Shown one piece after another: positions 14,536 to 35,615 of a stretch of DNA of 39,334 nt. The translations under genes and the position numbers were made by a program. The notes below the pieces were generated by a model. That model was given only the letters and a program-made list of their open reading frames with translations, made no database searches and had not been told where the DNA came from. This DNA comes from an uncultured Candidatus Saccharibacteria bacterium (GTDB lineage Bacteria > Patescibacteriota > Minisyncoccia > CAYRSW01), in assembly GCA_964427335.1 (NCBI GenBank), contig CAYRSW010000001.1, forward strand, positions 18,101 to 57,434, given 5' to 3'. Numbering within the stretch: position 1 is the first letter of the stretch; the number at the start of each line of letters is the position of its first letter.

Positions 14536-15918
14536 ATGACTAATAAACAACTCTGGCGAAGAGTGTTAAGCGAACTTGAATTAAATCTTTCCCAAGCAAG
14601 TTTTAATACTTGGTTTAAAAATACCTCTGTGGCTTCAAAACAGAAGGAAACTATAGTGATAAGTGTCCCCAGCGGATTTGTGAAAGAGTGGTTAGAAAAT
14701 AAGTATAATAAATATATTCTGAAAGCTTTACAAAAATATTACCCCAAAACGAAGAAAGTAGATTTTATTATCAAATCTCTCTCTCCGATTGGGGAAACTT
14801 TAAAAAGGTTAAAAAAAAGTAAAAATAGAGAAAGAGAAGAATCAGTTATTAGTACTATCCCTAATAAAGCAGAACTAGGTAATCTCGAAGGCCTAAATCT
14901 AAATTCTCGGTACACCTTTAACCTTTTTATTGTCGGCTCTTGTAACGAACTGGCTCATGCAGCGTCACTAGCCGTATCTAAAAATCCCGGTAAAACTTAT
15001 AACCCCTTATTCATTTACGGTGGCGTAGGTTTAGGAAAAACTCATCTTCTTCAAGCTATAGGGAACGAAATAATTAAAAATCACCCTACTAAAAAAATTA
15101 AATATATTACCTGTGAACAATTTACTAACGAACTTATCAATTCTATCAGACAACAAAAAATGAACGACTTTAAAAATAAATACCGGAAAATTGATACCTT
15201 AATAATAGATGATGTTCAATTTTTAGCAAAAAAGGAAAAAACTCAAGAAGAATTTTTTCATACCTTTAACACTCTTTACGAAAATAACAAACAAATAGTT
15301 CTATCCTCTGATAGAATCCCTAAAGCTATCCTAACTTTAGAGGAGAGACTTCGATCCCGTTTTGAGGGAGGTATGATTACTGATATTGGTCTCCCTGATT
15401 TTGAAACAAGGTTAGCTATTTTAAAAATGAAATTAGAAAAAAAACAAGAAACCCTCCCACAAGAAATTTTAGAGTACATAGCTTCTCACATCCAGAGAAA
15501 TATAAGAGAATTAGAAGGAGCCCTAAATAAAATAATTGCCTATAATGAGCTTAATAATAATTTATTAACTTTAAAAGATAGTAAGGCAATTCTCTCTTCA
15601 ATTATAAAAATACCAAGAAATAAGAGTATTTCCCCTCAGCAGATTATAAAAGTGGTTACAGAATTTTATAGTATAAAACCTCAACAGTTATTTGAAAAAA
15701 ATAGAAAAAAAGAGGTTGTTTATCCTAGACAAATAGCTATGTATTTAATGAGAGAAGAGGGTAAGTTTTCTTATCCTACTATAGGAGAAAAATTTTCTAA
15801 TCGAGATCATACCACAGTACTCCACGCTTATAAAAAAATAAATAGAGAAATCCAGGAAAATGAAGGTTTAGAAGAGGAGATAAATATAATTAAAGAAAAA
15901 CTCTATAATGACGTTTAG
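14536..15918 (+). CDS. dnaA: chromosomal replication initiator DnaA
   Basis: Walker A GGVGLGKTHLL, Walker B IIDDVQFL, sensor motifs, C-terminal DNA-binding DHTTVLHA. Confidence 0.97.
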   Translation: MTNKQLWRRVLSELELNLSQASFNTWFKNTSVASKQKETIVISVPSGFVKEWLENKYNKYILKALQKYYPKTKKVDFIIKSLSPIGETLKRLKKSKNREREESVISTIPNKAELGNLEGLNLNSRYTFNLFIVGSCNELAHAASLAVSKNPGKTYNPLFIYGGVGLGKTHLLQAIGNEIIKNHPTKKIKYITCEQFTNELINSIRQQKMNDFKNKYRKIDTLIIDDVQFLAKKEKTQEEFFHTFNTLYENNKQIVLSSDRIPKAILTLEERLRSRFEGGMITDIGLPDFETRLAILKMKLEKKQETLPQEILEYIASHIQRNIRELEGALNKIIAYNELNNNLLTLKDSKAILSSIIKIPRNKSISPQQIIKVVTEFYSIKPQQLFEKNRKKEVVYPRQIAMYLMREEGKFSYPTIGEKFSNRDHTTVLHAYKKINREIQENEGLEEEINIIKEKLYNDV

Positions 15919-16098: not shown

Positions 16099-17226
16099 AT
16101 GCACATTATTTGCACTCAAGAAAATTTAAATCAGGGAATAAATATCGTAGAAAAAATAGTCGGCAGGAACACAACCCTACCAATACTTAATAATATCCTT
16201 CTTAAAACAGAGAAAGGGGGGATTAAACTTTCCTCAACTAACTTGGAAATCGGAATAAACTGTTGGATAAGGGCCCAGGTTAAGGAGGAGGGTGGAATAA
16301 CTGTTCCCGCCAAAGCTATCTCTAGTTTTGTGAGTAGTCTTCCAAAAGAGAATTTAACTCTTAAAGTTACTAAGGATAAACTGGATATATCTTGTAGGGA
16401 ATTCCGAGCCGAAATAAAAGGAATGGGAGAAAAAGATTTTCCTTTAATTCCTAAAATAAAAGAACGACCGACCTTAACTCTTAAAACTCAAGATATTAAA
16501 CAGGCCTGCGGTCAGGTTGTTCAGGCAGCGGCCCTAACTGAGTCCAGGCCAGAAATCGCCGGTGTTTTATTTGATATCCTTCCTTCCGGGTTTACCCTTG
16601 TTGCTACCGACACTTACCGGTTAGCGAGAAAAATAGTAAAAAAAGAAAATCCTATAAAACAAGGAATTTCAGTAATAGTACCAAGCGCGACCGTTCAAGA
16701 ATTTATCAGAATATTTTCTGAACTAAAACAAGATTTAGATATTATTTTTGATAAGAATCAGATTCTATTTAGCTATGAGTCTTCAACTCAACCTATTATT
16801 GCTATTCACCTTTTCTCTAGATTAATTGAAGGTAAATATCCTGATTATAAGGAAATAATCCCCGAGAGTTTTGAGACGGAACTCGAATTTTCAAGGGTTG
16901 AATTGATAAATAAAATTAAAGTGGTTAGTCCCTTTAGTAGTAAAGTTAATGATATAAAGATAGAGCTCGAAAATGAGGAACTGGTAAAAATATCTACTAT
17001 TTCACCCGAACTAGGAGCGAGTACCGCTGATATAAAAACGAAAACGTCTAAAAAAACCGCAAGCCTAAATCAAATCACTTTTAATTACAGATACCTTCTT
17101 GACGGTTTAGAAAATATCCCAACCAAAAAAGTCATTCTTCGTCTAAATACCGAAAACTCGCCGGCCGCTCTAAAACCAGAAGGAGATAGAAGTTTCCTCT
17201 ATTTAATAATGCCGATTAAAACATAA
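16099..17226 (+). CDS. dnaN: DNA polymerase III beta sliding clamp
   Basis: 375 aa. N-terminus RNTTLPILNNILLKTEKGGIKLSSTNLEIGI and three-domain length. Directly follows dnaA. Confidence 0.95.
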   Translation: MHIICTQENLNQGINIVEKIVGRNTTLPILNNILLKTEKGGIKLSSTNLEIGINCWIRAQVKEEGGITVPAKAISSFVSSLPKENLTLKVTKDKLDISCREFRAEIKGMGEKDFPLIPKIKERPTLTLKTQDIKQACGQVVQAAALTESRPEIAGVLFDILPSGFTLVATDTYRLARKIVKKENPIKQGISVIVPSATVQEFIRIFSELKQDLDIIFDKNQILFSYESSTQPIIAIHLFSRLIEGKYPDYKEIIPESFETELEFSRVELINKIKVVSPFSSKVNDIKIELENEELVKISTISPELGASTADIKTKTSKKTASLNQITFNYRYLLDGLENIPTKKVILRLNTENSPAALKPEGDRSFLYLIMPIKT

Positions 17227-17272: not shown

Positions 17273-17302
17273 TTGACAGAATTAGTAAAAGGTAGGTATT
17301 AT
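17273..17302 (+). promoter_or_regulatory. near-consensus promoter for yebC-ruvC and the downstream operon; predicts a leaderless or near-leaderless mRNA
   Basis: TTGACA (17273-17278), 18-nt spacer, TATTAT (17297-17302). The yebC ATG begins at 17309, 7 nt after the -10 element. Confidence 0.6.
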
Positions 17303-17308: not shown

Positions 17309-17851
17309 ATGAGTGGACATTCTAAGTGGTCACAAATTAAACACAAAAAAGCTGTTACCGATATTCGTCGGGGAAAACTTTTTTCTAAAACAGCCAAAAT
17401 GATTAGTGTGGCTGCGAGAGTTGGTGGAGGTGACGCAGATTCAAATCCAAAGTTGAGACTTGCCGTTGATAAGGCCCGGGCGGTCAACATGCCCAAGGAT
17501 AACATTGAGCGAGCTATCGAACGAGGCAGAGGTGTGGGGGTGGCCAGACTTGAGGAGGTGAAATACGAAGCCTATGGGCCAGCCGGTGTTGCTTTGATTA
17601 TAGAAGGTATCACAGATAATAAGAATAGAACCCTTTCTGAAATTAAACATATACTTGCAGCTCATGGGGGAAAATTAGCCGAAACAGGAAGTGCTGTATG
17701 GGCGTTTACACGAATTGGAATGGACTGGGTGCCGAAGAGTCCTATTGAAGTAAAGGATACTAAGCAAAGATTACAACTCGAGGATTTATTTGAAGCGTTA
17801 GATGAAAACGATGACGTGCAGGAGATTTATTCAAATTTGGAACAAATATGA
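17309..17851 (+). CDS. yebC: YebC/PmpR-family protein, unusually short (180 aa)
   Basis: MSGHSKWSQIKHKKA, NPKLRLAVDKARAVNMPKDNIERAI, YEAYGPAGVALIIEGITDNKNRT, C-terminal DDVQEIYSN. Confidence 0.85.
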   Translation: MSGHSKWSQIKHKKAVTDIRRGKLFSKTAKMISVAARVGGGDADSNPKLRLAVDKARAVNMPKDNIERAIERGRGVGVARLEEVKYEAYGPAGVALIIEGITDNKNRTLSEIKHILAAHGGKLAETGSAVWAFTRIGMDWVPKSPIEVKDTKQRLQLEDLFEALDENDDVQEIYSNLEQI

Positions 17852-18321
17852 CGATATTAGGCATTGATCCTGGCACAGCCACTACAGGTTACGGCGTAAT
17901 AAAGAGGACAAAGCAGTGCCTCCAAGTTTTAGATTATGGTTGTATAGTAACTAAATCTGGGCTTTCGACTGCTGAGCGGCTAAAAGAAATTAATGAAGGG
18001 TTGATAGAACTCATCAAAAGGCATAAACCCGCTACTATGGCTATTGAAGATATTTTCTTTTTTAAAAATTTAAAGACAGCAGTGAAGGTCAGCCAAGCAA
18101 GGGGAGTGATGATGCTGACTGCTTGTAAAGAGGGGGTTTCCGTAGCTGAATACACTCCTTTACAAGTGAAGCTCGCTATAACTAGTTATGGTCGAGCAGA
18201 TAAAAATCAAGTACAAAAAATGGTGCAAGCATTACTCGGGTTGAAAGATATCCCTAGACCTGACGATGCAGCAGATGCGCTGGCAGTGGCTATATGCCAT
18301 GCAAATACAGTTAAAAGTTAA
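17848..18321 (+). CDS. ruvC: crossover junction endodeoxyribonuclease RuvC
   Basis: ILGIDPGTATTGYGVI, AIEDIFF, DDAADALAVAICHA. ATGA overlap with yebC. Confidence 0.92.
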   Translation: MTILGIDPGTATTGYGVIKRTKQCLQVLDYGCIVTKSGLSTAERLKEINEGLIELIKRHKPATMAIEDIFFFKNLKTAVKVSQARGVMMLTACKEGVSVAEYTPLQVKLAITSYGRADKNQVQKMVQALLGLKDIPRPDDAADALAVAICHANTVKS

Positions 18322-18339: not shown

Positions 18340-18981
18340 ATGTCTCAAATCATCACCTACATGGTTACCCAAGGGGTGCCAAAGGAAACAGTCATTCTCA
18401 TTTTAATGCTTCCAATAGTAGCCACTATTATTGCTTTTACTAGACAGGTAATTGGTATTAAGGGTTTTGGTATTTATACCTCCCTTATTATCACTTTTGC
18501 CTTTCTTTCTACGGGGCTTAAGTATGGATTAGCTATTTTTTTTATTGTTCTCATTACTGGGACCTTGATGCGCTTTATTCTTAGACGCTTAAGGCTTCTA
18601 TATCTACCCCGAATGGCTATAGTTTTAACCACAGTAGCCCTGGTAATAATGCTTATGTTTTTAGAAGCAGGTAATTCTCAAAGGGTAGATTTTTTAAAGG
18701 TTTCTATTTTCCCTATCCTTATTATTATCACTTTAGTGGAGAAATTTGTTGCTGCCCAAATTGAGAAGGGTAATCGAGCTGCGGTAATTCTCTCTCTGGA
18801 AACGGTAGCTTTAAGTGTACTTTGTTATTTTGTAGCTGGCTGGCCTTGGCTTAAAGACCTTATTTATTTTTATCCCGAATGGATATTTTTGACCATTGTT
18901 ATAAATATATTTCTGGGTAAATGGGCTGGTCTTCGGTTAAGTGAGTATTTTAGATTTAGGCAGGTTTTGAAACACCGCTAA
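18340..18981 (+). CDS. 7-TM membrane protein resembling the 7TM module usually fused to an inactive transglutaminase
   Basis: 213 aa, about 7 hydrophobic helices. FTRQVIGIKGFGIYTSLIITFAF, FPILIIITLVEKF, YPEWIFL...GKWAGLRLSEYFRFR. Sits next to an alpha-L-glutamate-ligase-like ATP-grasp, as in the known triad. Confidence 0.6.
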   Translation: MSQIITYMVTQGVPKETVILILMLPIVATIIAFTRQVIGIKGFGIYTSLIITFAFLSTGLKYGLAIFFIVLITGTLMRFILRRLRLLYLPRMAIVLTTVALVIMLMFLEAGNSQRVDFLKVSIFPILIIITLVEKFVAAQIEKGNRAAVILSLETVALSVLCYFVAGWPWLKDLIYFYPEWIFLTIVINIFLGKWAGLRLSEYFRFRQVLKHR

Positions 18982-18994
18982 TTTTTTAACTCAT

Positions 18995-19019
18995 CACGAA
19001 TAACGAACTCCTATTCGTG
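18995..19019 (+). terminator. intra-operon hairpin (possible attenuator) before the first ATP-grasp gene
   Basis: CACGAATA (18995-19002), 9-nt loop, TATTCGTG (19012-19019), followed by TATTTTATT. Confidence 0.3.
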
Positions 19020-19031
19020 TATTTTATTAGG

Positions 19032-20357
19032 ATGAGGAAATTTACGAAGAAAACCCAAAGTATTCTAGGTATGAACGCTCGTAACCTTCTTTATCTCTAC
19101 CCTTATAACTCAAAAAGGGCTATTCAGCTTGCTGATAATAAGTTAAGAACCAAAAAAGTGTTAAATAAAGCGAAAATTCCTATACCAGAAGTTTATAATA
19201 TTGTTACCGATAGATACCAATTGGACGAGTTTAATTGGGAGAGCTTACCCAATAGTTTTGTTTTAAAACCCAATCGAGGGTTAGGGGGAGAAGGAATTCT
19301 TATCGTTTATGGAAGAAAAAAGGGTAACGGCAATTGGGTGAAAGCGGATCGAACCCAGGTGGCTATAAGCGATCTCCGCAGTCATGTTCTAAACATTTTT
19401 GAAGGTAATTTTTCTCTCTACGGCATGGGTGACATTGCTTTTTTTGAGCAGCGCGTAAAGATGCATAAGGTTTTTAAACCCTATTCTTTCCGTGGTATTC
19501 CTGATATTAGGGTGATTGTTTTTAATAGAGTACCGGTGATGGCAGAGTTGAGATTGCCGACCGAAGAATCAAAAGGAAAATCTAATCTTCATCTCGGAGG
19601 TATTGGAGTGGGTATTGATATAGGCAGCGGTATTACAACCTTCGCTGTTCGTTATAACGAGCTTATTGAATATGTGCCTGAAAAAAGACTTGCTTTTAGA
19701 GGGATAAAAATTCCTCACTGGCAAAAAGTGTTAGAGCTCGCAGTTGAGGCTCAAGTTTTTTCAAGGGTTGGTTTTTTGGGGGTGGACATTGCTATTGATC
19801 GTGAGTTGGGTCCGATGGTGGTAGAACTCAATGCTCGGGCTGGGCTTTCAATTCAGGTTGCCAACCTCTGCGGTTTAAGAGAGCGGCTAAAAAGAGTTGA
19901 GGGGCTGGAGGTGAAAACAGCTCTTAAGGGAGTAAAGATCGCTCAAGAGCTTTTTGGGGGAGAGGTAGAAGAAGAGCTGGAAGAAATTTCTGGTCGCCGG
20001 GTTATTGGCATAAATGAGCCCATTGATATCCTAGACTCCAAAGGTGAGAAATATAAGACCATTGCCAAAGTAGACACCGGGGCATACCGAACTACACTAG
20101 CCGAGAGTCTAGCAAAGGAATTTGGTTTAGATGAAGAAATCAGACGGAAGATTGTTCGAGGGGCTTTAGGAAGGCAGGAGAGACCGATTATTAATTTCTC
20201 TTTTATTCTTGATAAGAGATTAGTCCAGACAGAAGCCTTTATCGCCGATAGAAGTCAAATGAAGTATGATATTATTGTGGGAAGGAGAGACCTAAAAAGG
20301 TTTTTAGTTGATCCAGCTAAGAATGTTTTAGTAAGGAGAAAGCCGGTTAAAAAATGA
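19032..20357 (+). CDS. ATP-grasp ligase (alpha-L-glutamate-ligase-like / sugar-transfer-associated type) fused to a C-terminal retropepsin-like (RimK-associated) peptidase domain
   Basis: SILGMNARNLLYLYPYN N-terminus, FVLKPNRGLGGEGI, LGVDIAIDRELGPMVVELNARAG. C-terminal KVDTGAYRTTL and DIIVGRRDL. ATG 19032 preferred over the GTG at 19017 used by the track. Confidence 0.7.
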   Translation: MRKFTKKTQSILGMNARNLLYLYPYNSKRAIQLADNKLRTKKVLNKAKIPIPEVYNIVTDRYQLDEFNWESLPNSFVLKPNRGLGGEGILIVYGRKKGNGNWVKADRTQVAISDLRSHVLNIFEGNFSLYGMGDIAFFEQRVKMHKVFKPYSFRGIPDIRVIVFNRVPVMAELRLPTEESKGKSNLHLGGIGVGIDIGSGITTFAVRYNELIEYVPEKRLAFRGIKIPHWQKVLELAVEAQVFSRVGFLGVDIAIDRELGPMVVELNARAGLSIQVANLCGLRERLKRVEGLEVKTALKGVKIAQELFGGEVEEELEEISGRRVIGINEPIDILDSKGEKYKTIAKVDTGAYRTTLAESLAKEFGLDEEIRRKIVRGALGRQERPIINFSFILDKRLVQTEAFIADRSQMKYDIIVGRRDLKRFLVDPAKNVLVRRKPVKK

Positions 20358-21310
20358 TAAAAGATAAAAACACCAATATTATTATCAGAGAGGCTAAAAA
20401 ACTTGGTCTTAGAGTAAAAGTTCTTCAGGAGAAAAGAAAATTTTTAGAATTAAGCATTGGCAGGAAGAAGTTCTTGCTCCAACGAGATTTCCGAATTAAT
20501 ATTGACCGGTTTGGCACTAGGAATATTCCTCTCTTTAAAGATTTAACCTACCTTCTCTGGAAAAGAGAAAAAATTCCTATTCCCAGAACCACCACAGCAT
20601 TTTCTCTCCAAGAAGCAAAAAGGAAACTAAAAGAGATTCCTCGCCCGTGGGTTATCAAAGACGCTGTAGGTTCTCTAAGTAGGTATGTCTGGATTAATGT
20701 CTCCGATTCTCGAAGAGCAATTTCGATTTTTGAAAAACTATTTTCTTCGCTTCGGATTAAAGCAGTGGTTATCCAGAAATTCGTCAAGGGAAGGGAGTTT
20801 CGGGTTTTGGTCCTCAAAGATAAAATTTTAGGCATTGTTGAGCTTACCTGGCCCCTTATTATTGGTGACGGCCGACTACCTGTTAGAAAACTATTAAGGA
20901 ATTTAGGAAAGATTGCGAAATGCGAAATTACGATTGACGAAGATTTAAAAAATTTAATAAAACTTCAGGGATATTCTTTAGATTCAGTGCTGTCCAAAAA
21001 CAAAAAAATATATATTAGGGAACGCTCTTCTCTTAGTGAAGGAGGGAAGATTAGGTCGGTTCCTATTCGAGTTCACCCACACGTCAAACAGATGTGTCTT
21101 CGGGCAACAAAGGCAGTCGGATTAGAATTAGGCGGCCTGGATATCATTGCTGAAAATTTGTCAATGTCGCCCCAGAGCCAAAGATTAAAATTTATCGAAA
21201 TTAATGGACGGCCCGACCTTTGGCTTCATCACCTGCCGGATGAGGGCAAGCCCGTTAACGTAACTCGGGAAATTCTAAAATACATCTTTTTTAATTCCCA
21301 CCATAAATAG
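20354..21310 (+). CDS. ATP-grasp ligase (resembles the cyanophycin-synthetase N-terminal / RimK-type module)
   Basis: WVIKDAVGS, VVIQKFVKGREFRVLVLKDKILG, IIGDGRLPVRKLL, GGLDIIAENL...LKFIEINGRPD. ATGA overlap with the previous gene. Confidence 0.6.
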   Translation: MIKDKNTNIIIREAKKLGLRVKVLQEKRKFLELSIGRKKFLLQRDFRINIDRFGTRNIPLFKDLTYLLWKREKIPIPRTTTAFSLQEAKRKLKEIPRPWVIKDAVGSLSRYVWINVSDSRRAISIFEKLFSSLRIKAVVIQKFVKGREFRVLVLKDKILGIVELTWPLIIGDGRLPVRKLLRNLGKIAKCEITIDEDLKNLIKLQGYSLDSVLSKNKKIYIRERSSLSEGGKIRSVPIRVHPHVKQMCLRATKAVGLELGGLDIIAENLSMSPQSQRLKFIEINGRPDLWLHHLPDEGKPVNVTREILKYIFFNSHHK

Positions 21311-21325
21311 TTATCAAACTGATAA

Positions 21326-22234
21326 ATGCGATTAAAAACTAAAAATTACATCCTTGCTGGTTTAGATTTTATATTTGATGAAAATGATAATCCTTGGTTT
21401 TTGGAAGCAAATGGGCTCCCCAGAAGCTACGAAACTATTATGAAAGAGTTATACGGAAAATCTGAACCCGTGAAAAAGCTTTCCCAGATTATAGATTATT
21501 ATGGGAAAAATTTTTGTATTCTACCTCCCAGGAAAAGAATATTGTTTAAAAAAGATATACCCACTCTCCTCTCCGAATTTAGAAGGTATTTAAAGGCAGA
21601 TATTCATCTCTGCTTTCTTAAAGACAACAAAAATAAAAGAAAAAAACTTTTAGATGAGAATGGTGTTAATATTTATCCCGACAGCATTTTAAAATGTCTT
21701 ACTTCTTTCATGCCAAAAAGCCTCGAGAAATCTCCTGCTTTATTGATTAACCCATTATCTGTATTGAAAATAACAAGGAATAAGTTGTACACGATAGATA
21801 TAGTTAGAAAGAATACTAAAGCAAGAGTGCCTAAAACGTTTCTGATTAAAAACGCATCTGAGGTAGAAAAAATTGTCGAAAAAGAAAACTTTGAATCGTT
21901 TGTTATCAAACCCATACGTGGAACAGGCGGTCATAATGTGTTTGTGCTGTCTAGGAATGAACAAATTCCTAAAATAAAGACACCATTTTTACTGGGACAA
22001 TGTATAAACCCGAAATTAAGAGACAAAAGGCACTGGGATGTAAGAGTTTATCTGGTGAATGGTGAAATGGCCGGCGGCTTTATCAGAGAAACCATGAGCA
22101 AAGTTACAAATATTGCCCGCGGCGCCAATGCCAGCAAAATTACTAAAAAACTTTTGAACAAGCTTATAAGACCTTCAATGGAAATCGTAAGAGCTATAGA
22201 TAAAGAAGCTGAGAAAATTAAATTTAAGAGATAA
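21326..22234 (+). CDS. ATP-grasp ligase, apparently circularly permuted (C-terminal Mg-ATP strand at the N-terminus)
   Basis: N-terminus ILAGLDFIFDENDNPWFLEANGLP. Later FVIKPIRGTGGHNVFVL, HWDVRVYLVNGEMAGGFIRE, NIARGANAS. The protein ends where the E-x-N strand would normally follow. Confidence 0.55.
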   Translation: MRLKTKNYILAGLDFIFDENDNPWFLEANGLPRSYETIMKELYGKSEPVKKLSQIIDYYGKNFCILPPRKRILFKKDIPTLLSEFRRYLKADIHLCFLKDNKNKRKKLLDENGVNIYPDSILKCLTSFMPKSLEKSPALLINPLSVLKITRNKLYTIDIVRKNTKARVPKTFLIKNASEVEKIVEKENFESFVIKPIRGTGGHNVFVLSRNEQIPKIKTPFLLGQCINPKLRDKRHWDVRVYLVNGEMAGGFIRETMSKVTNIARGANASKITKKLLNKLIRPSMEIVRAIDKEAEKIKFKR

Positions 22235-22238
22235 ATAT

Positions 22239-23111
22239 ATGGACCACTTTGCTATAATAGGAGGTGGAAAAAACTACTCTAATACGATTGCAAAAGAGTT
22301 GAGGAACTTAGGTGGAAGAGTTGATGTTCTTCATTGGGCTGCCTTCTTCCCCCTTTCTTATAAACTGGACATTTCCAACTATAATCTTATCTATTTAAGA
22401 ATAGGGGGGACTTTTAGTGTGAGATTTGTTTTAGTTACTCAACTGGAATTAATGGGATATAAACTAATTAATAACCCAAGATCAATTTTTATTACCAACA
22501 ACAAATTTCTTGGCTGCAGTGTAGTGAGGGAAGTGATAAAAGTTCCTCCAACTTTTCTCGTAGGTCGGAAGGAAAATTTAAAGGAGGTCCCTTCAAAGAT
22601 AAATTTTCCTTTTGTTCTAAAGCCTATTGTTAGCATAGGGGGAAGAGGGGTCATTAAAATAGGAAATCAGGAACAATTAGAGGAATATTATAAGAAAGTA
22701 GACCCTCGGCGAATAAAGAAAAGGCCTGTATATGCTCAAGAATTTGTGGATTTTGACAGATTGGTTCGGGTGGTTATGGTGGGGAATGAGGTTATAGATG
22801 CTGCTTATGATGAACTAAAAGAAGGAGATTGGAAATGTTCAGTCTGTGTTAACCCAGATGTGAAACCCTACCCAATAGACAAAAAGCTAAAGAACCTTGT
22901 TTTAAAAGTGAAATCTGTAACAAAACAGGAAATATGTATGTTGGATGTTTTTGAAAAAGATGGGGAATACATATTCAACGAGATAAATAATCAGTGCGAC
23001 CTAAGCTATATGCAGCAAGCAACCGGCGTAAATCACGCCAGGAGAATAGCTGAATATTTAATAAAGGAAGTGGCTAAAAAACATAATGATAAAAGATATA
23101 GAAACTCTTAA
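22239..23111 (+). CDS. RimK-like ATP-grasp ligase
   Basis: FPFVLKPIVSIGGRGVIKI, VYAQEFVDFDRLVRVVMVGNEVI, ICMLDVFEKDGEYIFNEINNQCD. Confidence 0.7.
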   Translation: MDHFAIIGGGKNYSNTIAKELRNLGGRVDVLHWAAFFPLSYKLDISNYNLIYLRIGGTFSVRFVLVTQLELMGYKLINNPRSIFITNNKFLGCSVVREVIKVPPTFLVGRKENLKEVPSKINFPFVLKPIVSIGGRGVIKIGNQEQLEEYYKKVDPRRIKKRPVYAQEFVDFDRLVRVVMVGNEVIDAAYDELKEGDWKCSVCVNPDVKPYPIDKKLKNLVLKVKSVTKQEICMLDVFEKDGEYIFNEINNQCDLSYMQQATGVNHARRIAEYLIKEVAKKHNDKRYRNS

Positions 23112-24570
23112 AACTTTTTTCCGTGAGAAAATAAAGACTCCTGTTTTTGGTGTGGGGGTCTATGCTTTTAATCGGCTGGGGTTGGCTGATGTTATTCCTG
23201 ATTTTAGAGTTTTAGCTTTGCGTTACAGTCTAGATACCGAGCTTATAGAAAAGGACATTGAAGTTTTTCCGCTTGAGAAAGGAATGGGGACTAAGCATAT
23301 CAAGGAGCCAAGGAATGCTACTACTGTCATAAGGCATCCACGGACCGAAAAATATTTAAGAAAATTTAAAAACCCAGCATTAATTGTTTATAAGTCTTCT
23401 TCCCGGATGGAAAAGGTCTGTCAGCAGCGCGGCTGGAATTTAGTTGCCGTGCCGGTAAAGTTTGGCAAAACCTTATTTGAAAATAAAGTAAAATTCCGGA
23501 GAATTCTAGAAGAAATTGGTGTTCCTGTTCCACCGGGCAGAATTAAAAAACCTCAAGCTCTTCACTATGGTCATTTGATGAATAGTTATGGGCTACCTTT
23601 TGTAATCCAACATCCGACCCGAGGAGGAGGAAAGGGAACATTTTTTATCAGAAACAAAGATGATTTTGACCAGGCTTTAAAAAAATTAAGAATAAGAATA
23701 AAAGAAGGCCAGGAATTACCCGCTAAGGAGCCAGAGGAAGTGATTGTTACTCGCTTTATCAAGGGGCCTTCGCCAAGTATTACTGGTTGTGTCACCCGTC
23801 ACGGGATTTTGTCTACTTGTCCTCAAATACAGATTTTGGATATCCCCGAACTTTTTAACCCGGAAAGAGGTTCGGGTCTTTTTTGCGGTCATGACTGGGA
23901 TTATCATTTAAGCGAGGACATTAAGAGACAAGCATATAGTATTGTGGAGAAGATAGGAAAATATTTTCAATCACAAGGATATAAAGGGATTTTCGGCCTG
24001 GATTTCGTTATGGACGAAAAAGAAGAAAAAATTTATGTCATCGAAACTAATCCCCGATTGCTGGCAACATTTCCTACTATCACTATGGTTCAAATTAGAA
24101 ATAATGAACCTCCCATTATGGCTTTTCATCTTTTAGAATATTTAAATATTGATTATGATATAGACATAGCCGAGATTAACCGATTGATAAGGCAATCAAA
24201 GCAAGGAGCCCAGGTGTTTTTGCATAATCTTACGGGAAGATGGACGAGGAATTGTGGGGAGATTAGGGCCGGTGCATACCGGCTAAATCCAAAATTAGAA
24301 TTTGTTCGTCCTGGCTACGCGTTAAAGCATTTGAAGAATGAAGACGAGTTTTTAGTTACTGAAGGAGTGTCTTTCGGAAAATCTCATTTTAGCCCCAACC
24401 GGCGGCTCTGTCGGATTCTCACCTTAAAGGGGGTCCTAGAGGATTATACTAAACTAAATGATTGGGGCCGAGAAGTGGTTACCCAAGTCTATCAAGCCCT
24501 AGATATAAGGCCAGTAAAATTTATTAAATTAAGAAAATTCTTTTCCCCACATTTTTTAGCGAAAGGGTAA
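23086..24570 (+). CDS. large ATP-grasp ligase with N-terminal pre-ATP-grasp domain
   Basis: LPFVIQHPTRGGGKGTFFI, VIVTRFIKGPS, GIFGLDFVMDEKEEKIYVIETNPRL. 26-nt overlap with the previous gene. Confidence 0.7.
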   Translation: MIKDIETLKTFFREKIKTPVFGVGVYAFNRLGLADVIPDFRVLALRYSLDTELIEKDIEVFPLEKGMGTKHIKEPRNATTVIRHPRTEKYLRKFKNPALIVYKSSSRMEKVCQQRGWNLVAVPVKFGKTLFENKVKFRRILEEIGVPVPPGRIKKPQALHYGHLMNSYGLPFVIQHPTRGGGKGTFFIRNKDDFDQALKKLRIRIKEGQELPAKEPEEVIVTRFIKGPSPSITGCVTRHGILSTCPQIQILDIPELFNPERGSGLFCGHDWDYHLSEDIKRQAYSIVEKIGKYFQSQGYKGIFGLDFVMDEKEEKIYVIETNPRLLATFPTITMVQIRNNEPPIMAFHLLEYLNIDYDIDIAEINRLIRQSKQGAQVFLHNLTGRWTRNCGEIRAGAYRLNPKLEFVRPGYALKHLKNEDEFLVTEGVSFGKSHFSPNRRLCRILTLKGVLEDYTKLNDWGREVVTQVYQALDIRPVKFIKLRKFFSPHFLAKG

Positions 24571-24579
24571 AGAGGAATT

Positions 24580-25032
24580 ATGGAGATTAAAAGAGTTATT
24601 ACTAAAAAAAAAGCAAAAGAGGTAGCTGCTTTAATTAACAAATATGCCGGATTTCCTCTTAGGAGAAGATATAATGACATTATCTCTAAAAAAGATAGAG
24701 TTTTCTTTGCTGGATTTTATAAAAGCAGGCTTGTTGGTTGTATTGGAGTAAAAAAAGATTACTTTTATTCTTCTGAGCTGATTAATCTTTGTGTAAAACC
24801 TGAATTTGGGCGTCGGGGTTTTGGTACGAAACTGATTTCAGAAATGACAAAAAGGTTCGGCGAGAAAAGGCCAATATTCTTCAGCACGATAAGAGAAAAA
24901 AACATTGCTTCTCAAGTATTATTTAGAAAACTTGGCTTTAAGAAAATAACCGAGTTCACAAATCCTGAAACCGGCCATAAACTCGGTTTATATTTTTTAA
25001 ACTATCAAAAACAACATGTACATAGGCATTGA
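24580..25032 (+). CDS. GNAT-family N-acetyltransferase
   Basis: 150 aa. Motif A LCVKPEFGRRGFGTKLISEM, then a FRKLGFK-type C-terminal region. Confidence 0.8.
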   Translation: MEIKRVITKKKAKEVAALINKYAGFPLRRRYNDIISKKDRVFFAGFYKSRLVGCIGVKKDYFYSSELINLCVKPEFGRRGFGTKLISEMTKRFGEKRPIFFSTIREKNIASQVLFRKLGFKKITEFTNPETGHKLGLYFLNYQKQHVHRH

Positions 25033-25978
25033 CATCGGCGCTACCAAAATTGCCTTCGGCAGAGTCAAAATACAAAATATTCACCCCGCCCCTCGCGGAG
25101 GGCGGGGCAAGAAATACAAGATACAAGATACTATCAAGATAGAAACCCCTGAGCAGAAGCAGAAGGCTATTGAAGTCATTAAAGAGAACATTAAGAGACT
25201 TATAACTCCGAAGGTTAAAGGCATTGGCATTGGAGCGCCTGGTTCTTTAGACCGAGGGAAAGGTATTATTCACTTCGCCCCCAATCTTTCAGGTTGGAAA
25301 AATTTGGATTTAAAAAAGCCCCTGGAAAAGGAGTTTAAGGTTCCTGTATTTTTTGACAATGATGCTAATTGTTTTGCGCTGGCTGAAAGCCGGTTTGGCG
25401 CTGCCAAAAATCTCGCTTATGTTGTTGGGTTAACTATTGGCAGCGGTTTAGGCGGAGGGATTATTATTGATGGTAGTATTTATCACGGAGCTGATTTTGC
25501 CGGAGAAATTGGGCATATGACCATAGATCCAAATGGGCCGAAGTGTGGTTGTGGCAACCGTGGGTGCTTTGAGGTTTATGTTTCTGGAGGAGCGATTGTG
25601 AGGAGATATAAAGAGTTAACCGGAGTCAAGAAAAATCCGAAGGAAATCGAAGAAGAATCATATAATCGCAGACTGAAGTCTGCTACTCCTGGAGTAGCGA
25701 CCTTAAGGTCGCGATATCCTGCTCTCCAAGTCATCAACGAAACTGGCAAGTACCTAGGCATTGGCTTGGCCAATATCTGTAATATTCTTAATCCAGAAAT
25801 GATTGTTTTAGGGGGAGGGGTGGCAAAAACAAAAACTCTCTACAAACCAGCTATCCGTGAGATGAAAAAAAGAGCCCTTCCTTTTGCTAAGGGGACTCCT
25901 GTAGTTCAATCAAAGTTGGGCGATAAGGCAGGGTTTATCGGTGCAGCACTTCTACTATCGCTTCGGCAAATTTCTTAG
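25016..25978 (+). CDS. ROK-family sugar kinase (glucokinase-like)
   Basis: YIGIDIGATK, FFDNDANCFALAE, GLGGGIII, GEIGHM, zinc motif CGCGNRGCFE. Contains two GC-rich palindromic segments (see findings). Confidence 0.85.
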   Translation: MYIGIDIGATKIAFGRVKIQNIHPAPRGGRGKKYKIQDTIKIETPEQKQKAIEVIKENIKRLITPKVKGIGIGAPGSLDRGKGIIHFAPNLSGWKNLDLKKPLEKEFKVPVFFDNDANCFALAESRFGAAKNLAYVVGLTIGSGLGGGIIIDGSIYHGADFAGEIGHMTIDPNGPKCGCGNRGCFEVYVSGGAIVRRYKELTGVKKNPKEIEEESYNRRLKSATPGVATLRSRYPALQVINETGKYLGIGLANICNILNPEMIVLGGGVAKTKTLYKPAIREMKKRALPFAKGTPVVQSKLGDKAGFIGAALLLSLRQIS

Positions 25979-27940: not shown

Positions 27941-28798
27941 TTATTTTTTTGTATTCTTTTGGTTGTTCTCTTTCTGTTCTGCTTTTTTACTTCGTTGAAG
28001 AATTTTTTGGTAAAGTTTATAGGCTTTCTTGCCATACCAATCATCGGGTAAAAGATCTCCTGGTAACTGTGGATCATCTTTTAAGATATTCAGATATTCC
28101 ATTTGTATTTTAAGTTTATCAACTTTAAGCTCCTCTACTTTTTGAGAAAGTTTTTTATATTTAGAGAAGAATTCTTTATATTTTTTGTTAATTTCTTCAA
28201 GGTGCCAAACTCGACCGGCTAATTCCTGGGAGTCTTCCCGGCCTAGTTTATTGGTAACTGAAGGGATAACCCAACTTTCCATATTATGAAACTCAACTAA
28301 ACTCTCAATATTGGCTAGAAAATTGTAAGGAGAAATCCAAACACTGTCTTGGAGCCGACCAAAGCCTAATTTCTTTAATTTTTCTCTGAAGGCATTTCTT
28401 TTTATTCTCCGATCTTCCGGGATGTCAAAGGCTACTATATACCATTTATCATCCCAGGTGGATGGTTTTTTGTACTCAGGCAAAATACTCTTTAGTCTTT
28501 TCCATCCCTCTTTAGTTAATTTCCAATCTGGATCAAGCCAACCTTTTTCTCTTAGTTTATAAAAGTTACGATATAGCGTATTTGGATCGTAACCTCCAAG
28601 CCGTAAATCCAACCTTTTCATCATAGACATTGATCCCGCGGAACCTAGAGGACTGATTTCTTCTGCAAATCCTACCCAAAGAAGAATAAAATCTTCTAAA
28701 CTGCGGACTAGCCCAGAACTTAATTTAATAACTTTTTTCCTAATCGGTCTCCTTTTGGATTTTACTTTCTTGTTTTTATTTTTTATTCCTTTTTGCAT
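27941..28798 (-). CDS. PaaX-like transcriptional regulator (winged-helix + Cas2-like core + helical C-domain)
   Basis: LYRNFYKLREKGWL (wHTH-like) and WDDKWYIVAFDIPEDRRIKRNAFREKLKKLGFGRLQDSVWISPYN (PaaX/Cas2-like ferredoxin core). The start is moved to the internal ATG 28798 (MQKGIKNK) because the consensus promoter lies inside the longer track ORF. Confidence 0.6.
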   Translation of the reverse strand: MQKGIKNKNKKVKSKRRPIRKKVIKLSSGLVRSLEDFILLWVGFAEEISPLGSAGSMSMMKRLDLRLGGYDPNTLYRNFYKLREKGWLDPDWKLTKEGWKRLKSILPEYKKPSTWDDKWYIVAFDIPEDRRIKRNAFREKLKKLGFGRLQDSVWISPYNFLANIESLVEFHNMESWVIPSVTNKLGREDSQELAGRVWHLEEINKKYKEFFSKYKKLSQKVEELKVDKLKIQMEYLNILKDDPQLPGDLLPDDWYGKKAYKLYQKILQRSKKAEQKENNQKNTKK

Positions 28799-28810
28799 TG
28801 TTTTATTTCT

Positions 28811-28847
28811 TTTTCTTATACGATATGCGGTCGTCGGTATTGTAAGG
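28811..28847 (+). repeat. 37-nt repeat copy M2 (inverted relative to M1 and M3), inside the 5' UTR of the PaaX-like gene
   Basis: Plus-strand reading TTTTCTTATACGATATGCGGTCGTCGGTATTGTAAGG, 27/37 identical to M3. Confidence 0.8.
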
Positions 28848-28855
28848 TTATCTGT

Positions 28856-30535: not shown

Positions 30536-30540
30536 TTTAT

Positions 30541-35234: not shown

Positions 35235-35236
35235 GT

Positions 35237-35611: not shown

Positions 35612-35615
35612 GTTT

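What the first reader, a model, noticed from the sequence alone, without database searches (positions are those of the whole stretch)
18340..25032. Five tandem ATP-grasp ligases with a 7TM protein, a fused retropepsin-like peptidase and a GNAT: candidate uncharacterised amide/peptide-ligation system
Seen: the genes at 18340-25032 are co-directional and packed (ATGA overlap at 20354-20357, 26-nt overlap at 23086-23111, other gaps of 4-50 nt), so they form one operon. Five consecutive ORFs each show ATP-grasp hallmarks. These are a Lys plus Gly-rich loop (FVLKPNRGLGGEG, WVIKDAVGS, FVIKPIRGTGGHN, FVLKPIVSIGGRG, FVIQHPTRGGGKG) and the Mg-ATP E-x-N strand (VVELNARAG, FIEINGRPD, FLEANGLP, FNEINNQCD, VIETNPRL). 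The first ligase is fused to a retropepsin-like module (KVDTGAYRTT, DIIVGRRDL) and preceded by a 7TM protein. Established: the triad of 7TM module, alpha-L-glutamate-ligase-like ATP-grasp and RimK-associated aspartic peptidase recurs in comparative-genomic surveys of amidoligases, and to my knowledge it lacks experimental characterisation. RimK-type enzymes extend protein C-termini, and cyanophycin-synthetase-type enzymes build polymers. Inference: expansion to five different ligases plus an acetyltransferase suggests stepwise, one-bond-per-enzyme assembly of a short non-ribosomal peptide, a poly-amino-acid tail or an envelope cross-bridge. The product would be processed by the peptidase and handled at the membrane. 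I see no precursor-peptide ORF inside the cluster.
Basis: partly seen in the sequence, partly recalled or inferred. Interest (0 to 1): 0.8.

Follow-up and report, generated by a model that had tools for sequence, protein, structure and literature searches.

The report
Rlo-like peptide ligase cluster, expanded
A tiny-genome (CPR/Patescibacteria) bacterium carries, next to its replication origin, a membrane protein plus a ligase-protease fusion related to the recently described Pseudomonas Rlo stress system, followed by four extra peptide-bond-forming enzymes and an acetyltransferase, which together probably build and trim a short acidic peptide whose identity is still unknown.

Summary
Genes at 18340-25032 encode a 7TM protein, five ATP-grasp enzymes (the first fused to a retropepsin) and a GNAT. 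None is a housekeeping orthologue.

The interpretation needs three corrections:
- The triad is no longer uncharacterised. It is the Rlo system (RloB/RloC/RloA, P. aeruginosa, mBio 2025). Its relatives RimB and RloA cleave poly-glutamate.
- Only 7TM plus the ligase-peptidase fusion is conserved, in all 77 related CPR loci that have upstream sequence. The other ligases form a variable island, and 49 of 79 loci carry at least one. ORF8-type ligases occur in about 38 loci, ORF5-type in about 17, and close ORF7 homologues in 2. ORF6 and the GNAT occur in none. Near relatives lack ORF6, ORF7 or the GNAT, or carry broken copies.
- The transcription unit probably runs from yebC to ROK.

New findings:
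- ORF6 is a circularly permuted ATP-grasp of a small family. It usually sits beside canonical RimK-like ligases.
- A conserved acidic linker (EVEEELEE) joins ligase and peptidase.
- Other loci carry MATCAP peptidases or a RimK-GNAT fusion.

Most likely function: ribosome-independent assembly and trimming of an acidic peptide or tail at the membrane. The product is unknown. This is a new variant of a known kind, of moderate to high interest.

The parts
18340..18981 (+). ORF3: 7TM membrane protein. It is homologous to the C-terminal 7TM half of RloB and has no transglutaminase domain.
   Evidence: PF14402 1.6e-32, profile positions 57-247 of 248. NF052267 RloB 1e-22, positions 312-507 of 508 only. 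About seven hydrophobic segments. It lies directly upstream of the ORF4 homologue in all 77 related loci that have upstream sequence.
19017..19958 (+). ORF4, N-terminal part: RloC-like ('alpha-L-glutamate ligase-like') ATP-grasp domain, about residues 1-314. The start may instead be the ATG at 19032.
   Evidence: PF14397 2.7e-66. TIGR02291 274.5 bits, residues 12-314. K84, E270 and N272 are invariant in 22 homologues. More than 3866 homologues, almost all from Patescibacteria.
19950..19997 (+). Conserved acidic linker LFGGEVEEELEEISGR (ORF4 residues 312-327) between the ligase and peptidase domains.
   Evidence: Six positions are 69-91% acidic (five of them 83-91%) across 81 CPR homologues down to 44% identity. 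F313, G314, G315, E318, E322 and G326 are invariant in A2.
19998..20357 (+). ORF4, C-terminal part: retropepsin-like aspartic peptidase domain of the RimB/RloA family, fused and therefore cytoplasmic.
   Evidence: PF05618 28.9 bits (cut-off 27). RloA3, RloA1 and RimB NCBIfam hits. PDB 9g59/9g58 at 2e-4, with AKxDTGA, ERP and DRS aligned. K351, D353, G355, R389 and R412 are invariant.
20354..21310 (+). ORF5: stand-alone ATP-grasp related to the G domain of cyanophycin synthetase and to the GshF and Ngg ligase domains.
   Evidence: TIGR02068 1e-50, positions 161-474 of 862. PDB CphA1 7txv/7lg5 at 1e-27. Homologues of 50-59% identity occupy the same position in 7 loci, and 30% paralogues lie after ORF8 in about 8 more.
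21326..22234 (+). ORF6: circularly permuted ATP-grasp ligase. The D..ExN hairpin is at residues 11-29 and the Lys/Gly loop at 195-202.
   Evidence: Split Pfam matches: TTL positions 231-260 at residues 4-33, and RimK positions 1-126 at residues 150-273. Conserved in homologues. In-silico re-circularisation restores a colinear match. AF2 and Foldseek agree. 65 representative clusters at E<=1e-30.
22239..23111 (+). ORF7: RimK/LysX/ArgX-like ATP-grasp ligase.
   Evidence: PF08443 5e-20 over the full profile. TIGR00768 115 bits and LysX 104 bits, both below cut-off. PDB ArgX 3vpb at 1e-16. Homologues of 58-59% identity only in L012 and L014. Frameshifted in the 99% relative L090.
23086..24570 (+). 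ORF8: CPR-specific ATP-grasp of the biotin-carboxylase/PurK/PurT structural class.
   Evidence: PF02655 1e-12. PRK06524 156 bits against a cut-off of 684. 344 homologues, all CPR. AF2 pLDDT 86.6 and Foldseek TM 0.5-0.6 to biotin-carboxylase domains at 12-17% identity. Adjacent to the ORF4 homologue in about 38 of 79 loci.
24580..25032 (+). ORF9: GNAT acetyltransferase, RimI/FR47-like. An accessory gene.
   Evidence: PF08445 3e-13, PF00583 1e-11, TIGR01575 rimI 43.6 bits below cut-off. Present in L089, absent in L087, L088 and L090. An analogous RimK-GNAT fusion lies after the ORF4 homologue in L038.
17309..18321 (+). yebC (short form, 180 aa) and ruvC. They are conserved upstream neighbours and probably share the transcript. 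They are not thought to be functionally part of the ligase system.
   Evidence: The gap to ORF3 is 18 nt. Best promoter-like site at 17273-17302. Synteny holds in about 73 of 80 loci.
25016..25978 (+). ROK-family kinase. It overlaps the GNAT by 17 nt and is probably co-transcribed. It is a conserved neighbour only in close relatives and is not counted as part of the system.
   Evidence: PF00480 4.5e-71. It follows ORF8 or the GNAT in L087-L090 whatever the ligase content. Absent from the 80 species-level loci.

Best explanation
This is a Patescibacteria (CPR) version of the Rlo/Rim type of ATP-grasp plus retropepsin system, enlarged by a variable set of accessory ligases.

Core machine:
- The core is ORF3 (RloB-like 7TM protein) plus ORF4.
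- The RloC-like ATP-grasp domain of ORF4 activates a carboxylate as an acyl-phosphate. It then extends an alpha-linked acidic chain, probably glutamate-rich, on a peptide or protein C-terminus in the cytoplasm.
- The fused retropepsin domain, acting as a dimer like RimB and RloA, cuts such acidic chains. This sets their length or releases them.
- The 7TM partner docks the enzyme at the membrane, or passes the product across it.

Accessory enzymes:
- ORF5 (CphA-G-like), the ORF6+ORF7 pair (permuted plus RimK/LysX-like), ORF8 (BC-like) and ORF9 (GNAT) diversify the product.
- Each ligase would add or elongate a different residue at a free carboxylate, and the GNAT would cap an amino group.
- These enzymes come and go between lineages. 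The product is therefore probably a lineage-specific variant of one basic acidic peptide, not the output of a fixed five-step line.

Shown: the homologies, intact catalytic residues, translational coupling, and the conservation pattern.
Inferred: the substrate, the product, the order of steps, and the role of the membrane protein.
For: Domain assignments and intact motifs:
- ORF4 falls in TIGR02291 (1e-81), and ORF3 matches the 7TM half of RloB.

What is known of the related systems:
- In P. aeruginosa, deleting rloB or rloC rescues the triple rloA protease mutant, so the three act in one process.
- RloA and RimB cleave runs of 8 or more Glu.
- K46, R114 and R137 bind the poly-Glu substrate (PMC12239564).
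- The equivalent ORF4 residues K351, R389 and R412, with D353-T-G, are invariant. They align with the AKxDTGA, ERP and DRS motifs of 9g59/9g58.

Conservation:
- 7TM plus the fusion occurs in all 77 loci with upstream sequence.
- 49 of 79 loci carry at least one further ATP-grasp directly after the fusion, drawn from at least three families.
- The same slot also holds MATCAP carboxypeptidase-like genes (6 loci, 6.5e-45), an M17 aminopeptidase, a Mur ligase and a RimK-GNAT fusion. All of these make or break peptide bonds.

Links to acidic residues:
- The characterised relatives of ORF5 add Asp, Gly or Gln to peptide carboxylates. Those of ORF7 add Glu or aminoadipate (family names; PDB hits).
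- One ORF6-family member is fused to a poly-gamma-glutamate hydrolase.
- ORF6-like genes are repeatedly paired with canonical RimK-like ligases elsewhere.

Coupling: start/stop overlaps or gaps of 4-35 nt throughout.
Against: - No substrate, primer or product has been identified. No protein with an acidic C-terminal tail is encoded nearby.
- The Rlo product itself is unknown even in Pseudomonas.
- The peptidase here is cytoplasmic and the transglutaminase domain is missing, so the topology differs from Rlo.
- Accessory genes are lost or broken in very close relatives. ORF7 is frameshifted in L090, ORF5 carries a 72-aa in-frame deletion in L001, and the GNAT and ORF6/7 are absent from L087-L089. 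They are therefore not required for the core function and might act on something else.
- ORF8 lacks the canonical ATP-binding Lys before the Gly loop.
- Amino-acid specificity cannot be read from sequence.
- Part of the synteny (yebC-ruvC ... TyrRS, PBP1A) is conserved CPR gene order, so adjacency alone is weaker evidence here than in large genomes.
Confidence: 0.5

Rival explanations
1. Small-molecule route. The ligases and the GNAT make a free, soluble N-acetylated acidic di-, tri- or oligopeptide. This would be a compatible solute or storage compound comparable to NAGGN or N-acetyl-aspartyl-glutamate. The 7TM protein would act as its exporter or sensor, and the peptidase would recycle it.
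For: - ORF5 matches the ATP-grasp part of N-acetylglutaminylglutamine synthetase (TIGR03103, 6.7e-24), and the GNAT matches its GNAT part weakly (0.0076).
- A RimK-GNAT fusion occurs at the same position in L038.
- Rlo mutants have osmotic phenotypes.
- From my own knowledge: mammalian NAAG is made by a GNAT (NAT8L) plus RimK-like ligases (RIMKLA/B), and RimK itself makes free poly-alpha-Glu.
Against: - There is no AsnO-type amidotransferase or M42 peptidase of the NAGGN trio.
- Scores are far below cut-off (84 against 569).
- The GNAT is absent from most relatives.
- RloA-type peptidases need at least 8 Glu, which does not fit a di- or tripeptide.
- MATCAP-type neighbours point to protein or peptide tails.
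Confidence: 0.2
2. Envelope modification. The system adds amino acids to a cell-wall or membrane-bound acceptor, such as the peptidoglycan stem or bridge, a lipid-linked precursor or a surface polysaccharide. The 7TM protein would present or flip that acceptor.
For: - PF14397 is named 'sugar-transfer associated'.
- A class A PBP lies co-directionally within 9 kb downstream in 59 of 79 loci.
- A Mur ligase (L018) and a GT2 glycosyltransferase (L055) occur in the island.
- Rlo mutants show cell-shape and beta-lactam phenotypes.
- ORF4 and ORF8 hit an archaeal 'pseudomurein ATP-grasp' model weakly.
Against: - In the window the PBP is 10 kb upstream on the other strand, so the linkage is not maintained.
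- PBP and TyrRS synteny looks like conserved CPR gene order.
- There are no Fem-type, Mur-type or lipid-carrier genes in the window cluster.
- The peptidase and all the ligases are cytoplasmic.
Confidence: 0.15
3. No common pathway. The five ligases are functionally unrelated genes that merely accumulated at a permissive insertion site between ORF4 and TyrRS.
For: - Island content is highly variable.
- ORF6, ORF7 and the GNAT have the lowest G+C in the block: 0.336, 0.359 and 0.325, against 0.385-0.406 for ORF4, ORF5 and ORF8.
- They are missing or broken in close relatives.
- ORF6-like genes occur in quite different contexts, for example between QueE and QueC/QueF.
Against: - What accumulates is almost exclusively ATP-grasp ligases, peptidases and GNATs, in 49 of 79 loci.
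- Genes overlap or abut within 4-35 nt.
- A small CPR genome would not hold five ATP-grasp genes in a row by chance.
Confidence: 0.1
4. Graspetide or other RiPP maturation. The ATP-grasp enzymes would macrocyclise a ribosomal precursor peptide that is then cut by the protease.
For: - ORF7 hits graspetide maturase models weakly (TIGR04187 3e-7, MvdC 5e-5).
- Graspetide clusters do exist in CPR (PMC8939145).
Against: - Scores are about 30 bits against cut-offs of 350-475.
- No precursor ORF fits in gaps of 4-35 nt.
- The best matches of all five enzymes are C-terminal-extension ligases, not macrocyclases.
Confidence: 0.03

Closest known systems
Rlo operon of Pseudomonas aeruginosa (RloA retropepsin, RloB inactive-transglutaminase 7TM protein, RloC ATP-grasp; PMC12239564)
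   Same: - It has the same three modules: a 7TM of PF14402, an ATP-grasp of PF14397/TIGR02291, and a PF05618 retropepsin with DTG and the basic residues that bind poly-Glu.
- They are adjacent and co-directional.
- The biochemical product is likewise unknown.
   Different: - Here the peptidase is fused to the C-terminus of the ligase. It is therefore cytoplasmic and has no signal peptide.
- The membrane protein lacks the periplasmic transglutaminase-like domain.
- Four further ATP-grasp genes and a GNAT follow.
- The host is a monoderm-like CPR bacterium, whereas 96% of RloB hits in that paper are Proteobacteria.
RimK/RimB (with RimA) ribosomal protein S6 poly-glutamylation system
   Same: - A cytoplasmic ATP-grasp alpha-L-glutamate ligase is paired with a cytoplasmic retropepsin that trims poly-Glu.
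- ORF7 belongs to the RimK/LysX family.
   Different: - No enzyme reaches the RimK equivalog score.
- RimK systems have no 7TM partner.
- S6 has not been examined.
- RimB is a separate protein.
Cyanophycin synthetase CphA1 (G domain), GshF and Ngg ATP-grasp domains
   Same: ORF5 aligns over the whole G domain (CphA positions 161-474). This is the domain that adds an amino acid to the C-terminal carboxylate of a growing peptide.
   Different: ORF5 has no N domain and no Mur-ligase-like M domain. At 172 bits against a cut-off of 850 it is not a cyanophycin synthetase.
Tubulin tyrosine ligase (TTL/TTLL) with MATCAP carboxypeptidase cycle
   Same: ATP-grasp ligases that extend acidic C-terminal tails are paired with a MATCAP-family (PF08014) peptidase. 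In six related CPR loci a MATCAP homologue sits between the ORF4 and ORF8 homologues.
   Different: The window itself has no MATCAP gene. This is an analogy of logic only, and no tubulin-like substrate is known.
Known circularly permuted ATP-grasp enzymes (Pfam CP_ATPgrasp_1/2; eukaryotic glutathione synthetase)
   Same: - ORF6 has a rearranged order of ATP-grasp elements.
- Its model is ranked closest by Foldseek to 3k1t, YjfC/YgiC, glutathionylspermidine synthetase and eukaryotic glutathione synthetases.
   Different: - ORF6 has no Pfam hit to CP_ATPgrasp_1/2.
- By sequence it is nearest to the non-permuted RimK/YheCD/ST families.
- The break point lies just before the Mg-binding D..ExN hairpin.
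- It looks like a separate, small family.

Membership tests
Rlo system (RloABC) | RloC-type ATP-grasp (PF14397 / TIGR02291) | tested here: met
   PF14397 scores 224 bits (cut-off 31.4). TIGR02291 scores 274.5 bits over residues 12-314, just under its equivalog cut-off of 314.2. This shows family membership, not proven equivalence.
Rlo system (RloABC) | RloB: inactive transglutaminase domain fused to the 7TM module | tested here: not met
   ORF3 is 213 aa and matches only positions 312-507 of 508 of NF052267 (80.6 bits against a cut-off of 900). It matches PF14402 alone. The homologues are also 206-213 aa.
Rlo system (RloABC) | RloA: stand-alone secreted retropepsin with an N-terminal signal peptide | tested here: not met
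   The peptidase domain is the C-terminal third of the cytoplasmic ligase ORF4. The fusion is conserved in more than 100 listed homologues.
Rlo system (RloABC) | Catalytic D-T/S-G and basic residues that bind poly-Glu (RloA K46, R114, R137) | tested here: met
   K351, D353, G355, R389 and R412 are invariant. They align with AKxDTGA, ERP and DRS of 9g59/9g58. The residue roles are taken from PMC12239564.
Rlo system (RloABC) | Hypo-osmotic, biofilm and antibiotic phenotypes; epistasis of ligase and 7TM over protease | not testable with these tools
   This needs genetics in a cultivable host.
RimK/RimB S6 modification | RimK equivalog (S6--L-glutamate ligase) | tested here: not met
   ORF7 scores 31.9 bits on NF007764 (cut-off 331) and 115.3 bits on TIGR00768 (cut-off 143.4).
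RimK/RimB S6 modification | Ribosomal protein S6 with a C-terminal Glu as substrate | not testable with these tools
   rpsF is not in the window, and the rest of the genome is not available.
Cyanophycin synthetase | N domain + ATP-grasp G domain + Mur-ligase-like M domain in one protein | tested here: not met
   ORF5 covers only positions 161-474 of TIGR02068, at 172.6 bits against a cut-off of 850. The window cluster has no Mur-ligase gene.
LysX/ArgX amino-group-carrier pathway | LysX equivalog with a LysW carrier and LysY/Z/J/K neighbours | tested here: not met
   TIGR02144 scores 103.7 bits (cut-off 275.6). No small CxxC protein with an acidic tail and no pathway genes are in the window.
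Housekeeping ATP-grasp enzymes (Ddl, PurK, PurT, CarB, AccC, GshB) | Score at or above the curated equivalog cut-off | tested here: not met
   The best scores are 16-35 bits against cut-offs of 243-1027 for every ORF. ORF8 scores 29 on AccC (cut-off 626) and 156 on PRK06524 (cut-off 684). ORF8 is 12-17% identical to biotin-carboxylase structures.
Graspetide (RiPP) clusters | Maturase-type ATP-grasp plus a leader/core precursor peptide gene | tested here: not met
   Maturase models score 20-30 bits against cut-offs of 350-475. Intergenic gaps of 4-35 nt leave no room for a precursor.
NAGGN synthesis trio | GNAT-ATP-grasp fusion (Ngg) + AsnO amidotransferase + M42 peptidase | tested here: not met
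   TIGR03103 scores 84.3 bits (cut-off 569) for ORF5 and 14.8 bits for the GNAT. The window has no amidotransferase or M42 gene.
Pfam circularly permuted ATP-grasp families (CP_ATPgrasp_1/2) | Match to PF04174 or PF14403 | tested here: not met
   ORF6 and ten relatives give no such hit at E<=0.01 or 0.001. The permutation itself is demonstrated.
Anti-phage defence systems (PADLOC) | Any PADLOC model hit | tested here: not met
   No hits for any of the seven proteins.

The most novel reading that the evidence does not exclude
The system may be self-primed and combinatorial.

- The conserved acidic linker of ORF4 (GGEVEEELEE) would be the built-in primer or pseudo-substrate.
- The retropepsin would auto-process the fusion there, as retroviral proteases do.
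- That cut would leave a Glu-rich C-terminus on the ligase, or release a peptide from it.
- The neighbouring ATP-grasp enzymes would extend this end residue by residue, and the GNAT would cap it.
- The 7TM protein would display or export the product.
- The variable ligase island would then give each CPR lineage its own non-ribosomal acidic surface or secreted peptide. Such a peptide could matter for attachment to, or signalling with, the host cell of these episymbionts.
- This would also explain why no precursor gene exists.
Probability: 0.12. Interest if true: 0.85.

Novelty: new variant of a known kind. Interest (0 to 1): 0.6.

Why it matters
Rlo-type systems affect osmotic tolerance, antibiotic sensitivity, biofilm formation and cell shape in Pseudomonas. 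What they make is not known.

The CPR version may help to find out:
- It is widespread, with thousands of homologues.
- It is stripped down, with no transglutaminase domain and with ligase and peptidase in one chain.
- It is retained next to oriC in genomes of about 1 Mb that have lost most biosynthesis, which argues for an important role.
- The variable set of extra ligases, MATCAP-like peptidases and GNATs offers natural 'experiments' that could reveal the chemistry. It points to a lineage-specific peptide product.

The permuted ATP-grasp family (ORF6) and its habitual pairing with canonical ligases is a separate small addition to the ATP-grasp repertoire.

Tried and rejected
- Exact-sequence look-up of ORF4 found nothing, because the GTG-start form is not on record. 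Look-ups through homologues worked.
- The Iyer et al. 2009 amidoligase survey could not be retrieved. Statements about it rest on memory and are not used as evidence.
- The metagenome scan with the 41-sequence ORF6 alignment failed because it had no conserved stretch. It was repeated with the 7-sequence alignment.
- Housekeeping-orthologue hypotheses (Ddl, PurK, PurT, CarB, AccC, GshB, LysX, RimK, CphA) were rejected on curated cut-offs.
- A defence-system reading was rejected.
- A graspetide reading was rejected.
- A search for nearby proteins with acidic C-terminal tails or LysW-like carriers gave nothing convincing.
- No tRNA or Rfam RNA element lies in the window.
- The terminator-like hairpins on the + strand inside the cluster all lie within coding sequence and were not taken as operon boundaries.
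- I first suspected that yebC (180 aa) was a frameshift artefact. The short form is conserved in relatives, so that idea was dropped.

Full report
**1. What is there**

The window is the replication-origin region of a low-G+C genome.
- rnpA/yidC/jag lie on the minus strand, and dnaA (14536-15918) and dnaN (16099-17226) on the plus strand. The GC skew changes sign here.
- The rest of the window is typical of Patescibacteria (CPR): two Wzy_C proteins, a PaaX/Cas2-like protein, T4SS-pilin/VirB4/TraG genes and a class A PBP.

Downstream of dnaN runs an unbroken co-directional series:
- yebC (180 aa)
- ruvC
- ORF3 (7TM protein)
- ORF4 (ATP-grasp plus retropepsin)
- ORF5, ORF6, ORF7 and ORF8 (all ATP-grasp)
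- ORF9 (GNAT)
- a ROK kinase

The junctions are overlaps (ATGA at 20354-20357, 26 nt at 23086-23111, 17 nt between GNAT and ROK) or gaps of 4-35 nt. The best sigma-70-like site in the region lies just upstream of yebC, at 17273-17302 with 11 of 12 matches.

No tRNA, Rfam element or defence-system model is found.

**2. Each protein**

*ORF3* (213 aa) matches only the 7TM part of PF14402 and of RloB (positions 312-507 of 508). It has about seven hydrophobic segments and no transglutaminase-like domain.

*ORF4*
- Residues 12-314 match TIGR02291 'alpha-L-glutamate ligase-like' (1e-81) and PF14397 (2.7e-66).
- Residues of about 330-446 are a PF05618/RloA/RimB-type retropepsin.
- The peptidase domain aligns with PDB 9g59/9g58 through the AKxDTGA, ERP and DRS motifs.
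- K351, D353, G355, R389 and R412 are invariant in 22 homologues.
- By position and spacing, these correspond to RloA K46, D48, R114 and R137, the catalytic Asp and the residues shown to bind poly-glutamate (PMC12239564).

*The ORF4 linker.* Between the two domains lies LFGGEVEEELEEISGR.
- Six of its positions are 69-91% acidic (five of them 83-91%) over 81 CPR homologues, down to 44% identity.
- For a linker that is unusual conservation.
- It sits next to a peptidase family that cuts acidic runs, so it may be a pseudo-substrate or an auto-processing site. This is an inference.

*ORF5* aligns over the whole G domain of cyanophycin synthetase (1e-50; PDB 7txv/7lg5 at 1e-27). It lacks the N and M domains.

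*ORF7* is a full-length RimK/LysX/ArgX-type enzyme (PDB ArgX 3vpb at 1e-16) that scores below every equivalog cut-off.

*ORF8*
- It belongs to a CPR-only family of about 500-aa proteins: 344 hits, annotated only as 'ATP-grasp domain-containing'.
- A confident model (pLDDT 86.6) resembles biotin-carboxylase, PurK and PurT domains at TM 0.5-0.6 and 12-17% identity.
- D306, E320, N322 and R324 are invariant. The usual Lys before the Gly-rich loop is replaced by an invariant Gln-His.

*ORF9* is a small RimI/FR47-like GNAT.

None of the five ligases reaches the curated score of Ddl, PurK, PurT, CarB, AccC, GshB, LysX, RimK or CphA.

**3. ORF6 is circularly permuted**

- Its Mg/ATP strand pair (AGLDF...FLEAN) lies at residues 11-29. 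The Lys/Gly-loop follows at 195-202, and the chain ends where that hairpin would normally begin.
- Pfam sees the two pieces out of order: TTL positions 231-260 at residues 4-33, and RimK positions 1-126 at residues 150-273.
- The arrangement and the catalytic residues (D14, E27, N29, K153, K195, R240) are conserved in the family.
- An exhaustive profile search finds 65 representative clusters at E<=1e-30 that are colinear over the full length. Longer relatives of 390-430 aa begin with the same hairpin.
- Moving residues 2-60 to the C-terminus in silico extends the RimK match to positions 1-168 of 188. It also gives a single TTL match across the artificial join.
- The AF2 model (pLDDT 76) is ranked by order-dependent Foldseek closest to 3k1t, YjfC/YgiC, glutathionylspermidine synthetase and eukaryotic glutathione synthetases. 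These come ahead of LysX and RimK.
- There is no hit to the Pfam CP_ATPgrasp families.

Contexts of ORF6-like genes elsewhere:
- They sit beside one or two canonical RimK-like ATP-grasp genes in L006, L100, L101, L104, L105, L106 and L108/L111.
- One member is fused to a poly-gamma-glutamate hydrolase.
- One sits between QueE and QueC/QueF.

ORF6+ORF7 thus looks like an instance of a recurrent 'permuted plus canonical ligase' module.

**4. Conservation**

The ORF4 fusion has more than 3866 homologues, almost all from Patescibacteria.

In 80 species-representative loci:
- The 7TM gene lies directly upstream in all 77 that have upstream sequence, usually preceded by yebC-ruvC.
- What follows ORF4 is variable:
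  - nothing before TyrRS or PBP1A in about 30 loci;
  - an ORF8 homologue (53-63% identity) in about 38 loci;
  - an ORF5 homologue (50-59%) followed by a RimK-like gene in 7 loci;
  - an ORF5 paralogue (about 30%) after ORF8 in about 8 loci;
  - an ORF7 homologue (58-59%) in 2 loci;
  - a MATCAP-family peptidase between ORF4 and ORF8 in 6 loci;
  - single cases of a RimK-GNAT fusion, a Mur ligase plus RimK-like gene, an M17 aminopeptidase and a GT2 glycosyltransferase.
- In all, 49 of 79 loci carry at least one more ATP-grasp gene in this slot.
- ORF6 and ORF9 homologues are absent from all 80 loci.

Among close relatives:

| Locus | ORF4 identity | Gene order after the 7TM gene |
|---|---|---|
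| L087/L088 | 87% | ORF4-ORF5-ORF8-ROK |
| L089 | 95% | ORF4-ORF5-ORF8-GNAT-ROK |
| L090 | 99% | ORF4-ORF5-ORF6-ORF7 (frameshifted)-ORF8-ROK, no GNAT |
| L001 | >99% | as the window, but ORF5 has an in-frame 72-aa deletion that removes the lid |

ORF6, ORF7 and the GNAT also have the lowest G+C of the block.

The conserved unit is therefore 7TM plus fusion. In this lineage ORF5 and ORF8 are stable additions, and ORF6/ORF7 and the GNAT are recent and dispensable.

**5. Mechanism**

The triad is the Rlo system described in 2025.
- RloA proteases are secreted retropepsins that cut runs of 8 or more Glu.
- Loss of RloB (7TM plus inactive transglutaminase) or RloC (ATP-grasp) suppresses the protease-null phenotypes.
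- The ligase and the membrane protein therefore generate something the protease must remove. The product is unknown.

The related RimK/RimB pair builds and trims poly-alpha-Glu tails on ribosomal protein S6.

The CPR locus combines features of both: an RloB-like membrane partner and RloC-like ligase, but a cytoplasmic, RimB-like peptidase that is covalently attached.

ATP-grasp enzymes of the RimK, LysX, GshB and CphA-G classes all activate a carboxylate on the growing acceptor and add an amino acid to it. This is established enzymology, and I rely on it as general knowledge.

The most economical reading is a ribosome-independent system that extends and trims an acidic peptide or tail at the membrane. 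Accessory ligases would alter its composition and a GNAT would cap an amine.

Only peptide-bond enzymes occupy the variable slot: three or more ATP-grasp families, MATCAP, an M17 aminopeptidase, a Mur ligase and a GNAT. This is the main argument that these genes work on a common substrate class.

The acceptor, the residues added and the order of steps are all inferred.

**6. Rivals**

- A free N-acetylated acidic oligopeptide, NAGGN- or NAAG-like. ORF5 and the GNAT weakly match the two halves of Ngg, and L038 has a RimK-GNAT fusion.
- An envelope-precursor modification. The support is PBP1A synteny in 59 of 79 loci, a Mur ligase and GT2 in some islands, and the shape and beta-lactam phenotypes of Rlo mutants.
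- Mere co-location at an insertion hot spot.
- Graspetide maturation, which has very weak support.

Details and refutation tests are in the structured fields.

**7. Verdict**

This is not a categorically new system. It is a new, widespread CPR variant of the Rlo/Rim kind, seen here in its most expanded known form. It comes with two new details: a permuted ATP-grasp family and a conserved acidic inter-domain linker.

Interest is moderate to high. The product of this whole class of systems remains an open question, and the minimal CPR version with its natural variation could make the question tractable.

Noticed in passing
window 17309-17851: YebC is only 180 aa, against about 240 normally. It keeps the N-terminal domain and the first 58 positions of the second Pfam domain. 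The short form (179-192 aa) is conserved in close relatives, so it is not a sequencing frameshift.
   Followed up: partly
L004:9372-11892 (also L005): An ORF6-like permuted ATP-grasp gene sits between a QueE-like radical SAM gene and QueC/QueF in another CPR-like contig. This suggests an amino-acid or amide modification step in a 7-deazaguanine pathway.
   Followed up: no
P0187 (499 aa): A member of the ORF6 family is fused C-terminally to a poly-gamma-glutamate hydrolase domain (PF05908, 9e-12). This links the permuted ligase family to glutamyl-peptide chemistry.
   Followed up: partly
L001:3128-3868 and L090:13223-14094: Population-level decay of accessory ligases. A near-identical strain (>99% ORF4 identity) has an in-frame 72-aa deletion in ORF5 that removes the Gly loop and lid. 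A 99% relative has ORF7 split by a frameshift into 140 and 121 aa. Assembly error cannot be excluded.
   Followed up: partly
window 23599-23604 (ORF8 residues 172-177, FVIQHP): The canonical ATP-binding Lys that precedes the Gly-rich loop is replaced by Gln-His, invariant in 30 homologues. The Mg-binding residues D306, E320 and N322 are kept. The meaning for nucleotide binding is unknown.
   Followed up: no
L045, L047, L048, L053, L054, L056 (e.g. L047:3050-4165): MATCAP/DUF1704-family metallopeptidase genes (HExxH; PF08014, 6.5e-45) are inserted between the ORF4 and ORF8 homologues in six CPR species.
   Followed up: partly
L106:7001-9930, L101, L100, L104, L105: Tandem arrays of two or three ATP-grasp genes (one permuted plus canonical ones) lie next to SecD/SecF, EamA and amino-acid-kinase genes in unrelated, probably DPANN-archaeal, contigs.
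   Followed up: partly
window 29333-39102 (minus strand): A cluster encodes a T4SS-pilin-domain protein, a 1269-aa protein with no Pfam hit, and a VirB4/TraG-like ATPase. It resembles the Patescibacteria type IV secretion locus described in PMC12102498.
   Followed up: no
window 27941-28885 (minus strand): A PaaX-like protein with a central Cas2-like domain (PF20803, 7.7e-24). It also lies downstream of the ligase cluster in relatives L087/L088.
   Followed up: no
window 5321-8284 (minus strand) versus related loci: A class A PBP lies co-directionally within 9 kb downstream of the ORF4 homologue in 59 of 79 related loci. In this window it sits upstream, across the origin, on the opposite strand. 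This implies a rearrangement around oriC.
   Followed up: partly
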